Below, in pieces: positions 1-58,297 of a DNA stretch of 64,000 nt. Source of the stretch: Oscillospiraceae bacterium (GTDB taxonomy: Bacteria; Bacillota; Clostridia; UMGS1883; UMGS1540); the NCBI GenBank assembly GCA_015068765.1, contig SVJY01000004.1:8888-72887 (forward strand), given 5' to 3'. Position numbers and translations under genes: made by a program. The notes under the pieces are model-generated. The model was not told the origin of the DNA. It searched no databases and saw only the letters and a program-made list of their open reading frames with translations. Within the stretch, counting starts at the first letter, position 1; every line of letters starts with the position of its first letter.

Positions 1-1149
1 ACAGAGCCCCTTTTGGAATATTACCATAACTCCAGCTTTCTGGAGCACGGCGGCTCACCGGATCGGGCAGTAAAGACTGCCTTTGTTTCCGCGATTGATG
101 CCTATATCCGTGCCCAGAACAAGTATACAAAAGGAGAATCTAAGATTACCTTTGCGGATGTGCAGGACAGTCTTTGCCTTGTCATGAATTCCTTCTCAAC
201 CATGACCAGTTACGAAAACCAGACGAAAAAGGCAATTACTAATAAATTTATCGCCGAAGCGATGACGGAGTTCCTCCGCAAGAAGCTGGAAATTTACTTT
301 ATTGAAAACCGGGTGGAGGCAGAGAAGATTTCTGAGCAGATTCTTCTGAACAAGCGTAGCCGGGAAACAGCGGAAAAGACCCGTGTCAATCTGAAAAAGA
401 AGCTGGCAAAGAATATTGATGTGACAAACCGGGTCCAAAAATTTGTGGATTGCAGAACCAGGGACACGGAGCGGCGTGAGCTGTACATCGTGGAGGGTGA
501 CTCGGCTCTCGGCTCTGTAAAGCTTGCAAGAAATGCAGAATTCCAGGCGATTATGCCTGTCCGCGGTAAAATTCTAAACGTTTTAAAATGCGATTTGCCC
601 CGGATTTTCAAAAGTGACATCATTATGGATTTAATGCGTGTTTTGGGCTGTGGAATCGAAGTGAAAACCAAGGACTTTAATGCCTTTGATATGGAAAATC
701 TCCGATGGGATAAAATTATTATCTGTACCGATGCGGACGTGGACGGTTATCATATCCGCACCCAGATTCTGGCAATGATTTTCCGGCTGACGCCCACGCT
801 CATCCGGGAAGGCAAGGTATATATTGCCGAATCGCCGCTTTTTGAAATCACAACAAAAACCGATACGTATTTTGCCTATACCGAGCAGGAAAAGGCACAG
901 ATTCTGGAAATGCTGGGCAATACGAAGTGCACCATTCAGCGTTCCAAAGGTCTTGGCGAAAACAACCCGGACATGATGAGCAAAACCACCATGAATCCTG
1001 AATCCCGCCGTCTGATCCGTGTACTGCCGGAGGACGTCGAAAAGACAGCGGCGGTCTTTGAAATGCTCCTTGGGGATAATCTCCAGGGACGGAAAGACCA
1101 TATTGCCGAGGTGGGGGCACAGTATATTGAACTGGCAGACGTAATGTAA
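1..1149 (+). CDS. Type IIA topoisomerase B subunit (GyrB/ParE) C-terminal fragment, truncated at the window edge
   Basis: ORF is open to position 1. Toprim region with EGDSA motif, PVRGKILN, and the C-terminal tail typical of GyrB/ParE. Followed by an intrinsic terminator. Confidence 0.85.
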   Translation, partial: TEPLLEYYHNSSFLEHGGSPDRAVKTAFVSAIDAYIRAQNKYTKGESKITFADVQDSLCLVMNSFSTMTSYENQTKKAITNKFIAEAMTEFLRKKLEIYFIENRVEAEKISEQILLNKRSRETAEKTRVNLKKKLAKNIDVTNRVQKFVDCRTRDTERRELYIVEGDSALGSVKLARNAEFQAIMPVRGKILNVLKCDLPRIFKSDIIMDLMRVLGCGIEVKTKDFNAFDMENLRWDKIIICTDADVDGYHIRTQILAMIFRLTPTLIREGKVYIAESPLFEITTKTDTYFAYTEQEKAQILEMLGNTKCTIQRSKGLGENNPDMMSKTTMNPESRRLIRVLPEDVEKTAAVFEMLLGDNLQGRKDHIAEVGAQYIELADVM

Positions 1150-13429: not shown

Positions 13430-13535
13430 TCAAGACCGCCCGTGCTCTTCACCTACCCGGTTATGGCAAATTAATTCCGGCGACATCCTTTTGATTTGTG
13501 TTATGTACACTTTGCCGGAATGTGCATAAAAGATA

Positions 13536-13565
13536 GGGTCTGCGACAGAATCATGTCGCAGACCC
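13536..13565. repeat. Perfect 30-bp palindrome GGGTCTGCGACAGAATCATGTCGCAGACCC (copy 1)
   Basis: 11-bp stems with an 8-nt loop. An identical copy lies at 13806-13835. Confidence 0.8.
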
Positions 13566-13566
13566 T

Positions 13567-13703
13567 CAGACTGTCGAAAAACTTGCTCTATCGCAAGAAT
13601 ACTTTTATAAACGCTTTTTATTCCATTTTCAATCATTAAACATTTTAAATTTTTAAAGACGGAGATTCATCGAGAATCTCCGTCTTTTCTTGCTTTTTAC
13701 GAA
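13567..13703 (+). repeat. ~137-bp intergenic repeat element, copy 1, ending in an intrinsic terminator
   Basis: About 95% identical to 16126-16262. Ends in hairpin GACGGAGATTC-atcga-GAATCTCCGTC plus TTTTCTTGCTTTTT. Confidence 0.8.
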
Positions 13704-13805
13704 ATCTTTCTCTGACGTACCATTGTACGCCGACGAAAACGATTTCGTAAAATATATCTACGTTTTTCGATATCTGCCAGCGTGTCGACTTTATCGACAC
13801 GCTGA

Positions 13806-13835
13806 GGGTCTGCGACAGAATCATGTCGCAGACCC
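13806..13835. repeat. Second identical copy of the 30-bp GGGTCTGCGAC...GTCGCAGACCC palindrome, followed by TTTT
   Basis: Exact repeat of 13536-13565. Sits just downstream of the minus-strand SDR gene. Confidence 0.8.
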
Positions 13836-13845
13836 TTTTAAATCC

Positions 13846-16056: not shown

Positions 16057-16103
16057 CCTCTATGACCGAGCGAAGTGTTCACGTTCGGTCTTTTTGTAAA
16101 GTA

Positions 16104-16125
16104 AAACCACGCATTTGCGTGGTTT
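16104..16125. repeat. Perfect 22-bp palindrome AAACCACGCATTTGCGTGGTTT preceding repeat copy 2
   Basis: 10-bp stems, occupying the same position relative to the conserved repeat as the 13536 palindrome. Confidence 0.7.
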
Positions 16126-16262
16126 CAGACTGTCGAAAAACTTGCTCTACCGCAAGAATACTTTTATAAACGCTTTTTATTCCATTTTCAATCATTAAAC
16201 ATTTTAACTTTTGAAAGACGGAGATTCAACGAGAATCCCCGTCTTTTCTTGCTTTTTACGAA
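16126..16262 (+). repeat. ~137-bp intergenic repeat element, copy 2, with terminator hairpin
   Basis: About 95% identical to 13567-13703. Again lies between a + strand gene end and a - strand gene end. Confidence 0.8.
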
Positions 16263-16304
16263 GGTGTAAGCTACGGCATATATACTGTGCTGAATATAAG
16301 GGCT

Positions 16305-34267: not shown

Positions 34268-34397
34268 TGCATAAAAAAGCTTCCCCGAAGGGAAGCTCGC
34301 AAAACAAATCTTCTCCCTACGTTGGCATTACCCAAATCAGGTTTACGGGTCGGAACCCACTCGTTCCCTCTCAGCCGTTACGGCTCCCCGGATTTAT
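34268..34397 (-). promoter_or_regulatory. TPP (THI-box) riboswitch with terminator expression platform
   Basis: Minus strand CTGAGAGGGAACGAGTGGGTTCCGACCCGTAAACCTGATTTGGGTAATGCCAACGTAGGGAGA matches the TPP aptamer consensus. Followed by hairpin GCTTCCC-TTCG-GGGAAGC plus TTTTTTAT. Confidence 0.88.
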
Positions 34398-34403
34398 AGG
34401 TAT

Positions 34404-38358: not shown

Positions 38359-38419
38359 GTAAAAACAAAAGGGGCTCTGTAGGCAACCCGATTTTCAAAA
38401 TCGTTTTGCCGCAGACCCC
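38359..38419 (-). terminator. Long imperfect hairpin plus T-run downstream of the SulP gene
   Basis: Minus strand GGGGTCTGCGGCAAAACGATTTT-gaaaa-TCGGGTTGCCTACAGAGCCCC then TTTTGTTTTTAC. The stem shares GCAGACCC with the 13.5-kb palindromes. Confidence 0.55.
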
Positions 38420-58221: not shown

Positions 58222-58297
58222 GCGAATGTAGCTCATCTGGTAGAGCGCCACCTTGCCAAGGTGGAGGTAGCGAGTTCGAGCCTCGTCATTCGCTCCA
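58222..58297 (+). tRNA. tRNA-Gly (anticodon GCC), CCA encoded
   Basis: Cloverleaf folded by hand: acceptor GCGAATG/CATTCGC, anticodon stem CCACC/GGTGG with loop TTGCCAA, T-arm GTTCGAGC, 3' TCCA. 76 nt. Confidence 0.9.

What the first reader, a model, noticed from the sequence alone, without database searches (positions are those of the whole stretch)
13430..13845. Structured intergenic repeat family, copy 1: ~137-bp conserved unit with embedded terminator, flanked by two identical 30-bp palindromes
Copy 1 (13567-13703) is ~95% identical to copy 2 (16126-16262). Each lies between convergent genes and ends in a terminator hairpin (GACGGAGATTC...GAATCTCCGTC plus T-tract). This copy is bracketed by two identical copies of the palindrome GGGTCTGCGACAGAATCATGTCGCAGACCC (13536 and 13806), giving a MITE-like architecture. 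It also contains further hairpins (TTTTACGAAATC...GATTTCGTAAAA, CAGCGTGTCGAC...CGACACGCTG). A related GC stem (..GCCGCAGACCCC) occurs in the SulP terminator at 38371-38419. This looks like a REP/MITE-like or structured-RNA repeat family rather than simple terminators.
Basis: seen in the sequence. Interest (0 to 1): 0.55.

Follow-up and report, generated by a model that had tools for sequence, protein, structure and literature searches.

The report
Terminator-hopping miniature transposon, two copies
The repeat is a small gene-less mobile DNA element of uncultured gut Clostridia that inserts at the foot of transcription-terminator hairpins and copies the whole hairpin to both of its sides; it is a new family with an unusual insertion footprint, not a new kind of system.

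Summary
The sequence features are real. The unit is 238 bp (13567-13804), not 137 bp. It has imperfect terminal inverted repeats (CAGACTGTCGAAAAAC / CAGCGTGTCGATAAAG) and its own intrinsic terminator. The two identical 32-nt palindromes are not part of the family. They are the host's bidirectional terminator, duplicated on insertion.

Copy 2 (16126-16263) is a copy truncated just after the internal terminator. It abuts a different host terminator hairpin. A related genome has that same hairpin with an intact T-tract and no element, which serves as an empty site.

Related copies occur in at least seven Clostridia genome bins. Each starts exactly at the 3' foot of a different GC-rich hairpin. 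In 7 of 9 complete copies the same hairpin recurs on the far side. Eleven of 12 copies with both flanks lie between convergent genes.

Best reading: a MITE-like element that recognises stem-loop or cruciform structure. It is probably moved in trans by an IS1182-family DDE transposase. That family (IS1272) is known to target terminator hairpins, but deletes them. No transposase partner was found. No Rfam family matches, and only the terminator stem covaries. The hairpin at 38371-38419 is unrelated.

The parts
13535..13566 (.). Left copy of the duplicated host bidirectional terminator hairpin (target-site duplication, 32 nt: AGGGTCTGCGACAGAATCATGTCGCAGACCCT). The original A-rich run lies just upstream (ATAAAAGAT).
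   Evidence: Identical to 13805-13836, with the same loop orientation. Flanking hairpins differ between loci but match within a locus.
13567..13804 (+). Complete 238-bp element, copy 1.
   Evidence: Full-length match to the family profile, E = 3.7e-75. 95% identical to a copy in a goat-rectum Clostridia genome bin, L009.
13567..13582 (+). Left terminal inverted repeat CAGACTGTCGAAAAAC.
   Evidence: Invariant start of every copy, placed immediately after a hairpin foot. It pairs with the reverse complement of the right end, CAGCGTGTCGATAAAG (I1).
13582..13597 (+). Small hairpin CTTGC-TCTATC-GCAAG. GCAAGAA can alternatively pair with TTCTTGC at 13687-13693.
   Evidence: helix 1 invariant; L014 has GCAAGCAA/TTGCTTGC.
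13598..13654 (+). AT-rich variable segment. Its sequence and length differ between subfamilies.
   Evidence: Alignment A3, columns 32-106.
13655..13698 (+). Built-in intrinsic terminator: stem-loop 13655-13687 with conserved loop ATCGA, then TTTTCTTGCTTTTT.
   Evidence: Terminator scan. 7 of 13 stem pairs show changes on both sides across copies.
13695..13752 (+). Most conserved right-half segment. It forms the hairpin TTTTACGAAATC...GATTTCGTAAAA, with a nested GTAC/GTAC hairpin at 13716-13729.
   Evidence: helices 4 and 5, mostly invariant.
13778..13804 (+). Terminal palindrome 'X', CAGCGTGTCGA-CTTTA-TCGACACGCTG: an inner inverted copy of the end plus the right terminal inverted repeat.
   Evidence: The IS1182-like ISClbu1 has the same doubled-end architecture at its right end.
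13805..13840 (.). Right copy of the duplicated terminator hairpin (13805-13836), followed by the original T-run (TTTT).
16103..16125 (.). Host bidirectional terminator hairpin AAAACCACGC-ATTT-GCGTGGTTT, the target of copy 2. Its T-run is interrupted after 3 T.
   Evidence: The orthologous locus L028 has the same stem, an intact T-run and no element.
16126..16263 (+). Truncated element, copy 2 (family positions 1-140). It ends just after its internal terminator (stem-loop 16214-16246 plus T-run). It has no right end and no second hairpin.

Best explanation
The repeat is a non-autonomous DNA transposon (MITE-like, 238-252 bp, with no conserved reading frame).

Anatomy, which is shown:
- an imperfect left terminal inverted repeat;
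- a small hairpin;
- a fast-evolving AT-rich stretch;
- an intrinsic terminator facing inward from the left end;
- a well-conserved right half;
- a right end made of two inverted copies of the terminal repeat.

Behaviour, which is also shown:
- It lands on Rho-independent terminator stem-loops of unrelated sequence, mostly the shared bidirectional terminators of convergent gene pairs.
- In complete copies the whole hairpin (about 22-32 nt, usually the maximal palindrome) is present again on the other side, followed by the original T-run.

Mechanism, which is inferred:
- A DDE transposase supplied in trans recognises the extruded cruciform, not a sequence.
- Gap repair then duplicates the entire palindrome.
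- This is 'pathway b' of the model drawn for IS1272 by Wan et al. 2017 (PMC5678879).
- The likeliest supplier is an IS1182-family transposase. I put that sub-claim at about 0.5.

Consequence, which is inferred: each flanking gene loses the T-run next to its proximal hairpin copy. It still meets the element's own terminator, or the distal hairpin copy with the T-run. The insertion is therefore nearly harmless.

Copy 2 and similar short forms are decayed copies. I infer that the part kept is the terminator that now serves the upstream gene.
For: Family and termini:
- 14 real hits to the left-end 20-mer in 7 Clostridia genome bins. Several lie at contig ends of k=141 assemblies, the signature of a repeat of 140 nt or more.
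- Further copies in L023/L024 and L025.
- Profile census and termini.

Target duplication:
- The same hairpin lies on both sides in window copy 1 (32/32 nt), L006 (27/27), L007+L017 (26/26) and L016 (30/30).
- L009 has identical stems with the loop inverted. L014 has identical stems but different loops. L025 has 4 mismatches.
- The hairpin sequence differs at every locus.
- Where the bases just outside the repeat could be read (window copy 1, L006, L007/L017, L014), the duplicated stretch ends where palindromic symmetry ends, give or take one base in L014. In L009 it stops 2 bp short (read).

Empty site:
- L028 carries the orthologous ClpP-like/DivIVA intergenic region. It is 43 nt long, with the same hairpin stem as window 16103-16125 and an intact T-run.

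Context:
- 11 of 12 copies with both flanks lie between convergent genes.

Built-in terminator:
- Terminator scan. 7 of 13 stem pairs covary.

Link to IS1182:
- IS1272/TnSha1 target terminator stem-loops by structure, without sequence specificity (PMC5678879, PMC4923244).
- Six IS1182-family ISs fetched here have ends of the type G(A/G)GGCTG(T/G)GACATAA and an inward terminator just inside the left end.
- The element's left end scores in the top 0.3% of window 16-mers against that profile.
- The element's left 135 nt aligns collinearly with the left end of an E. faecium IS1182-family IS (blocks GACTGT, ACCGCAAGA, AATGA-CG, TCATTTCTTGC, T-run). The z-score is 4.4-7.4 for four variants and 2.4 for the fifth (L014). 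The other five ISs give 3.3 or less.
- ISClbu1 has the same doubled-end palindrome at its right end.
Against: - No autonomous partner was found. No IS1182-type transposase occurs in the 268 kb of held DNA. Every genome-collection hit to the left end is a gene-less element.
- The right terminal repeat does not score against the IS1182 end profile (top 6%). The right halves show no similarity.
- The documented IS1182-family behaviour (IS1272) is deletion of the stem-loop with no duplication, the opposite footprint.
- No same-species empty site was found for a complete copy. L028 and L029 differ downstream of the SDR gene.
- Two complete copies (L018, L023/L024) have different hairpins on their two sides. 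This needs a secondary explanation: recombination between copies.
- L014 has identical stems but unrelated loops, which simple duplication does not explain.
- The z-scores come from mononucleotide shuffles. They are inflated because the two arms of a hairpin are not independent.
Confidence: 0.8

Rival explanations
1. The same mobile element, but moved by a different enzyme class. The 11-5-11 palindrome X (CAGCGTGTCGA CTTTA TCGACACGCTG) and the left half-site would be core sites of a tyrosine, serine or HUH recombinase that acts on folded hairpins. No IS1182-type DDE transposase would be involved.
For: - X has the geometry of a recombinase core site.
- L005 shows a junction formed exactly where X's left arm would be replaced by a left end.
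- Solo X palindromes exist in L013 and in a phage contig about 150 nt upstream of a small serine recombinase gene.
- Hairpin loops flip in L009 and L025.
- No DDE partner was found.
Against: - Conservative site-specific recombination and HUH 'peel and paste' do not duplicate 27-32 nt of arbitrary target sequence.
- The targets share no sequence with X.
- In the phage contig the X-like hairpin is followed by a T-run and reads as an ordinary terminator. An 18-base pattern is expected to hit that collection about once by chance.
- Left-end homology to an IS1182-family IS.
Confidence: 0.13
2. A small-RNA gene or structured RNA family. In this reading the unit exists to express a discrete RNA (promoter-like TTGCTC-17-TATAAA, variable 'seed' region, terminator). 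Its spread is secondary, as with ssr9 riding on ISPpu9.
For: - A terminator with covarying stem and a conserved loop.
- A long-range GCAAGAA/TTCTTGC pairing encloses the variable segment.
- The variable middle lies between conserved flanks.
- Precedent: the ssr9 module (PMC12288879).
Against: - No Rfam family reaches its gathering score, and nothing credible appears at E up to 10.
- The promoter scan does not call the + strand candidate.
- Outside the terminator the helices are invariant, so they give no covariation support.
- The putative 'seed' is the least conserved part and changes length.
- Terminal repeats, target duplications and truncated copies are properties of DNA transposition.
Confidence: 0.05
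3. A retroelement-like (SINE-like) insertion made by target-primed reverse transcription of a terminated transcript. This would give variable-length target duplications and copies that stop at the internal terminator.
For: Two independent short copies end right after the internal terminator T-run (window copy 2 and L005-2). Target duplications vary in length.
Against: - The element has terminal inverted repeats.
- Short copies start at exactly the same first base as full copies, although any transcript would start upstream.
- No reverse transcriptase or ribozyme signal.
- The search used the left end, so copies that have lost the left end could not be seen (ascertainment bias).
Confidence: 0.01
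4. Only a local segmental duplication of a terminator region, with no mobility.
For: Within the 64-kb window the unit occurs only twice, 2.5 kb apart.
Against: Copies lie at unrelated loci in at least seven other genome bins, each next to a different hairpin. A related genome lacks the element at the copy-2 site.
Confidence: 0.01

Closest known systems
IS1272 / TnSha1 and other IS1182-family insertion sequences (DDE transposase, structure-dependent 'stem-loop' targeting; Wan et al. 2017 PMC5678879; Furi et al. 2016 PMC4923244)
   Same: - The target is a terminator-type stem-loop of any sequence, usually just downstream of genes.
- Terminal repeats are about 16 bp with a shared ..G.CTG....A.AA core.
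- An inward-facing terminator lies just inside the left end.
- Extra copies of an end occur (IS1272L, TnSha1, and the ISClbu1 right-end palindrome).
- The left part of the element aligns with the left end of an E. faecium family member.
   Different: - The element has no transposase gene.
[quoted passage not shown] IS1272 deletes the stem-loop and leaves no duplication. The other family members fetched here sit between the two arms of a palindrome.
- Its right terminal repeat and right half show no detectable similarity to the family.
Bacterial MITEs in general (e.g. Correia/NEMIS, RUP, ERIC, MITEAba12; review PMC10969869). MITEs with IS1182-family partners have been listed in Methanosarcina (PMC3852290).
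   Same: Small size, non-coding, terminal inverted repeats, flanking direct repeats, several copies per genome, intergenic location, truncated and recombined copies.
   Different: Ordinary MITEs make 2-10 bp duplications at short sequence motifs. Here the duplication is 22-32 nt (perhaps about 52 nt in L016) and is defined by a hairpin.
[quoted passage not shown]
   Same: A dispersed intergenic repeat that itself contains a terminator-like hairpin.
   Different: For SPRITE I found no report of whole-terminator duplication or of insertion at hairpin feet. There is no sequence relation. The comparison rests on the review text only.
ISPpu9 with its ssr9 small-RNA module (IS110 family, inserts into REP palindromes; PMC12288879)
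   Same: A gene-less module bounded by the IS's end sequences spreads on its own to palindromic intergenic sites.
   Different: ISPpu9 recognises a conserved REP sequence at an AG dinucleotide, probably guided by RNA, and makes no long duplication. Here the targets share no sequence.
CRISPR spacer integration and casposons (Cas1)
   Same: Staggered attack on both sides of a palindromic repeat duplicates the whole repeat. This is the only other bacterial process I know that routinely gives duplications of about 30 bp.
   Different: The insert is 238 bp with terminal inverted repeats. There is no array, no leader and no cas context. Every target is different. The resemblance is of outcome only.

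Membership tests
MITE (non-autonomous DNA transposon) | Short (<500 bp) and without a conserved reading frame | tested here: met
   The element is 238-252 bp. All six frames are interrupted, and the open frame differs between copies. The called 59-aa and 68-aa ORFs have no Pfam hit.
MITE (non-autonomous DNA transposon) | Terminal inverted repeats | tested here: met
   CAGACTGTCGAAAAAC versus the reverse complement of the right end, CAGCGTGTCGATAAAG (12 of 16). Present in every complete copy.
MITE (non-autonomous DNA transposon) | Direct duplication of target sequence flanking each copy, different at each locus | tested here: met
   7 of 9 complete copies. The duplicated unit is the whole terminator hairpin.
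MITE (non-autonomous DNA transposon) | Multiple copies at unrelated loci, with presence/absence differences | tested here: met
   At least 5 sites in bin JAZNLK, at least 3 in JAZROH and 2 in the window. Cross-species empty site for copy 2. No same-species polymorphism was seen.
MITE (non-autonomous DNA transposon) | An autonomous element with the same ends that encodes the transposase | tested here: inconclusive
   None among the genome-collection hits to the left end. None in 268 kb of held DNA. Whole host genomes could not be scanned.
IS1182 family (as parent or mobiliser) | Structure-dependent insertion into stem-loops or palindromes with no sequence consensus | tested here: met
   16 different hairpins at the left junction, with no shared sequence beyond a GC-rich stem plus A/T flanks. 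Literature: PMC5678879, PMC4923244.
IS1182 family (as parent or mobiliser) | Ends matching the family's terminal repeats | tested here: inconclusive
   The left end is in the top 0.27% of window 16-mers against a profile of 14 family ends, but far below true members (2.9 bits versus 11-23 bits). The right end is in the top 6%. The left 135 nt aligns with the L032 left end at z 4.4-7.4 for four variants and 2.4 for L014. The right ends show nothing.
IS1182 family (as parent or mobiliser) | DDE transposase of the family (Pfam DUF772 + DDE_Tnp_1_6) in the same genomes | not testable with these tools
tblastn of the IS1272 transposase against the held loci was negative.
IS1182 family (as parent or mobiliser) | Target outcome as documented for IS1272: stem-loop removed, no duplication | tested here: not met
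   The whole stem-loop is duplicated instead. This corresponds to the hypothetical pathway b of PMC5678879. From memory only: ISfinder lists direct repeats of 0-60 bp for this family.
REP / BIME (RAYT-associated extragenic palindromes) | One conserved palindrome sequence dispersed in many copies | tested here: not met
   The 30-nt palindrome occurs only at this locus in 64 kb, even with 3 mismatches. The hairpins flanking other copies are all different.
Curated structured RNA family (Rfam) | Match to a covariance model at its gathering score | tested here: not met
   No family at gathering score over the element. The best sub-threshold hit is 29 bits against a threshold of 100.
IS200/IS605-derived palindrome-associated elements | Subterminal hairpins at both ends, insertion 3' of a fixed tetra- or pentanucleotide, no target duplication | tested here: not met
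   Long target duplications are present, only the right end is a hairpin, and no fixed target motif exists.
IS110/IS1111 with bridge RNA (ISPpu9-like modules) | Sequence-specific target recognised by base pairing; no terminal inverted repeats (IS110 group) | tested here: not met
   The targets share no sequence, and the element has terminal inverted repeats and long duplications.
Group IIC intron (inserts after terminator stem-loops) | Group II ribozyme domains, >600 nt | tested here: not met
   238 nt, with no group II hit in Rfam at E up to 10.

The most novel reading that the evidence does not exclude
The family could be the first natural record of cruciform-directed transposition in which strand transfer at the 5' feet of both stem-loops duplicates an entire bidirectional terminator. 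The enzyme might not be a canonical IS1182 transposase. In this reading the element would be adapted to terminators as a 'safe harbour'. It would bring its own terminator, keep both neighbours terminated, and might deliver a variable 3'-UTR or small-RNA module between convergent genes.
Probability: 0.2. Interest if true: 0.65.

Novelty: new variant of a known kind. Interest (0 to 1): 0.45.

Why it matters
- It gives sequence-level examples of a transposon that reads DNA shape rather than sequence and leaves a hairpin-sized duplication. This outcome had only been drawn as a possibility in the IS1272 model.
- It explains a class of 'twin terminator' intergenic regions. It also explains contig breaks in short-read assemblies of gut Clostridia.
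- These elements reshuffle gene neighbourhoods (L023/L024).
- They lengthen the 3' ends of convergent transcripts so that the transcripts overlap.
- For annotation: the flanking palindromes are ordinary host terminators, and the ORFs called inside the element are spurious.

Tried and rejected
- Metagenome scan with the most conserved internal 20-mer: 3 hits, all chance matches in coding DNA.
- Viral, plasmid and phage collections with the element or its ends: nothing, apart from one X-like hairpin in a phage contig.
- Orthologous loci reached through the 431-aa neighbour (L002-L004): synteny is lost or the contig ends, so no empty site for copy 1.
- Exact look-ups of the SDR gene: only the same contig.
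- SDR orthologues L028 and L029: the downstream region is unrelated, so they are uninformative for copy 1. L028 did give the empty site for copy 2.
- The spurious 59-aa ORF used as bait in the protein database: only 3 clusters, which yielded L023-L025.
- A small protein on the minus strand (68 aa versus 38 aa in the two copies): the C-termini are unrelated and there is no ribosome-binding site, so it was rejected (read).
- dif/Xer, integron attC, helitron/IS91 and retron readings: rejected because none of them duplicates an arbitrary hairpin.
- tblastn for an IS1182 transposase in all held DNA: negative.
- Right-end comparison with IS1182-family ISs: negative.
- Literature check of the remembered '0-60 bp direct repeats' for IS1182: not retrievable.

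Full report
**1. The observation**

- The 138-nt stretch 13566-13703 recurs at 16125-16262 with 96% identity.
- The palindrome GGGTCTGCGACAGAATCATGTCGCAGACCC occurs twice, identically, at 13536 and 13806. With its closing A/T pair it is 32 nt.
- No shuffle of the window gives even one match at 3 mismatches or fewer. Nothing else in the 64 kb matches it.
- The terminator-like hairpin at 13655-13687 and the other two hairpins are real.
- Both copies lie between convergent genes. Copy 1 lies between a 431-aa ceramidase-like gene and an SDR gene. Copy 2 lies between a ClpP-like gene and a DivIVA gene.
- The hairpin at 38371-38419 shares only about 9 nt with the palindrome and is unrelated.
- Rfam has no family here.

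**2. What the unit really is**

I scanned one genome per species for the first 20 nt of the unit. This gave 15 loci, and 14 of them are real.
- They come from seven Clostridia genome bins from animal and human guts.
- In one bin (JAZNLK) five contigs end about 139 nt into the repeat. That is how a repeat of 140 nt or more breaks a k=141 assembly.

Reading these loci in register shows a longer element of 238-252 bp. Its parts, in order, are:
- CAGACTGTCGAAAAAC;
- the hairpin CTTGC-TCTACC-GCAAG;
- a variable AT-rich stretch;
- a hairpin with conserved loop ATCGA, followed by TTTCTTGCTTTTT;
- a well-conserved right half (..GTACGCCGACGAAAACGATT..);
- the terminal palindrome CAGCGTGTCGA-CTTTA-TCGACACGCTG.

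The two outer ends are imperfect inverted repeats (I1). Window copy 1 (13567-13804) is complete. Window copy 2 stops at family position 140, just after the internal terminator. No reading frame is conserved.

**3. The flanking palindromes are the target, not the element**

Every copy begins exactly at the 3' foot of a GC-rich hairpin, after 1-3 T. The hairpin is different at every locus (16 different ones). In complete copies the same hairpin is found again immediately after the right end, followed by the T-run:

| Copy | Flanking hairpins |
|---|---|
| Window copy 1 | 32/32 nt identical |
| L006 | 27/27 identical |
| L007 + L017 | 26/26 identical |
| L016 (distant relative) | 30/30 identical |
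| L009 | stems identical, loop inverted |
| L014 | stems identical, loops different |
| L025 | 4 mismatches |
| L018 | different hairpins left and right |
| L023/L024 | different hairpins left and right |

- In L023/L024 the right side is the window's own SDR-side hairpin and the left side is a murA terminator. That is what recombination between two copies would give.
- In window copy 1, L006, L007/L017 and (give or take one base) L014, the duplicated stretch ends where palindromic symmetry ends. In L009 it stops 2 bp short.
- Removing the element and one hairpin copy from the window restores AAAAGAT-hairpin-TTTTAAAT. This is a textbook bidirectional terminator between convergent genes.

**4. 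Empty site**

The SDR orthologue (88% amino-acid identity) on an ENA contig (L028) keeps the gene order GltX-DivIVA / ClpP-like-DUF378-S20-SDR.
- Its ClpP-like/DivIVA intergenic region is 43 nt: ACAAAAACCACGC-TGTG-GCGTGGTTTTTTGTTTGT.
- That is the same stem as window 16103-16125, with an intact T-run and no element.
- Copy 2 therefore sits at the foot of a pre-existing terminator.
- I found no equivalent empty site for copy 1.

**5. Context and state of the copies**

- Eleven of 12 copies with both flanks readable lie between convergent genes. The twelfth probably does too.
- One contig-end copy with only its left flank readable (L015) lies against a one-way terminator in the opposite orientation. 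Orientation is therefore not fixed by the T-run.
- Three copies lack the terminal palindrome and the second hairpin (L012, L019, L005-1).
- Two copies end just after the internal terminator (window copy 2, L005-2).
- Because I searched with the left end, copies that have lost that end could not be seen.
- One copy carries an IS3-family IS inside its terminator loop (L018).
- Perfect hairpins in and around the element are sometimes found flipped (L009, L025).

**6. RNA structure**

I counted a six-helix structure on 13 distinct copies.
- 93.8% of cells form a standard pair.
- 11 pairs have changes on both sides. Seven of these are in the internal terminator stem.
- The other helices are almost invariant, so they say nothing either way.
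- The element thus maintains a terminator. There is no evidence for a larger functional RNA.

**7. Mechanism and nearest relatives**

The literature describes one IS family that targets terminator stem-loops by shape: IS1182, through IS1272 and TnSha1.
- These delete the stem-loop and leave no duplication (PMC4923244, PMC5678879).
- The model in PMC5678879 includes an alternative pathway. Strand transfer at the 5' feet of the cruciform would duplicate the whole stem-loop. That is the footprint seen here.

I fetched seven IS1182-family loci from plasmids, including IS1272 and ISClbu1.
- Their ends follow G(A/G)GGCTG(T/G)GACATAA.
- In the six whose left ends I read, an inward-facing terminator sits just inside the left end.
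- ISClbu1 has a right end made of two inverted end copies, like the element's terminal palindrome.
- The element's left end is only weakly similar to the family's ends (top 0.27% of window 16-mers). The right end is not similar.
- The left 135 nt aligns collinearly with the left end of an E. faecium family member (GACTGT, ACCGCAAGA, AATGA-CG, TCATTTCTTGC, T-run). The z-score is 4.4-7.4 with 0 of 300 shuffles as good for four variants, and 2.4 for the fifth, L014. Five other ISs score 3.3 or less.
- Right ends show nothing.
- No transposase of this family is present in the 268 kb I hold.

I therefore commit as follows:
- Terminator-targeting MITE with whole-hairpin duplication: confidence about 0.8.
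- Mobilised by an IS1182-type DDE transposase acting on the cruciform: about 0.5.

**8. Consequence for the host (inferred)**

- After insertion, the upstream gene's hairpin has lost its T-run. Transcription should run into the element and stop at its built-in terminator (13655-13698), or at the distal hairpin copy.
- The opposing gene reads through the element to the other hairpin copy and its T-run.
- Termination is preserved on both strands. This would explain why such sites tolerate the element.
- It would also explain why decayed copies keep the terminator part.

**9. Verdict**

- The palindromes are duplicated host terminators.
- The unit is 238 bp.
- Copy 2 is a remnant.
- It is a new family and an unusual variant of a known kind of element, not a new kind of system.

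Noticed in passing
L023 and L024 (whole loci; element at 271-507, minus strand): In two independent assemblies of a related strain, the element lies between a murA-type gene with its own hairpin (ACAACCCGGAAGC..GCTTTCCGGGTTGT) and the window's SDR-side hairpin. This looks like a rearrangement by recombination between two element copies.
   Followed up: partly
L018 592-2554: An IS3-family insertion sequence of about 1.7 kb (OrfA starts MGRKSTTAFETKLL) is inserted in the loop of the element's internal terminator. This copy also has different hairpins on its two sides.
   Followed up: partly
L013 4940-4966; L037 12733-12759: Solitary copies of the element's terminal palindrome (CAG[CG]GTG[TC]CGA..TCGACACGCTG) occur without the rest of the element. 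The one in the phage contig is followed by a T-run and lies about 150 nt upstream of a small serine recombinase gene, next to tail/baseplate genes.
   Followed up: partly
L016 76-330: A different gene-less element of about 255 nt in a Ruminiclostridium bin. It shares the left end (CAGACTGTCGAAAAACTTGCC) and has the right end CTGGCTGTTGAAAAATC (reverse complement). It is flanked by a 30-nt exact direct repeat ending in a hairpin, perhaps about 52 nt if the diverged part is counted.
   Followed up: partly
L005 2624-2945: Two copies joined head to tail. Family positions 29-218 are followed directly by positions 1-135. The junction falls where the terminal palindrome would begin.
   Followed up: no
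L009 7604-7636 and 7494-7515; L025 (terminal palindrome): Perfect hairpins are found with the loop, or the whole hairpin, inverted relative to other copies. This affects the internal terminator and the left flanking hairpin in L009, and the terminal palindrome in L025. It suggests frequent template switching within palindromes.
   Followed up: no
window 16064-16095: The ClpP-like gene has a second, separate terminator (GACCGAGCGAAGTGTTCACGTTCGGTC + TTTTTG) upstream of the hairpin that the element targeted. The related genome L028 has only the one hairpin.
   Followed up: no
window 34297-34400 (-) and 58222-58294 (+): A TPP riboswitch (70.5 bits) and a tRNA gene are the only Rfam matches in the window at gathering score.
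   Followed up: no
L007 3300-4639: A dense scatter of ATATCG/GCGATAT motifs. A 41-nt direct repeat containing a hairpin occurs 1100 nt apart, around a GNAT-like ORF and a four-helix-bundle ORF. A repeat of about 240 nt lies at the contig end.
   Followed up: no
L003 11282-11414 and L004 5368-5527: Contigs of two related species end 130-160 nt downstream of the 431-aa gene. This may mark another repeat at that position. The visible sequence is unrelated to the element.
   Followed up: no
L032 and L033 (IS1182-family ISs on E. faecium and L. plantarum plasmids): These ISs are flanked by short inverted sequences (e.g. TTAAAGG / CCTTTAA), as if each sat between the two arms of a target palindrome. 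This fits the stem-loop targeting reported for IS1272.
   Followed up: no
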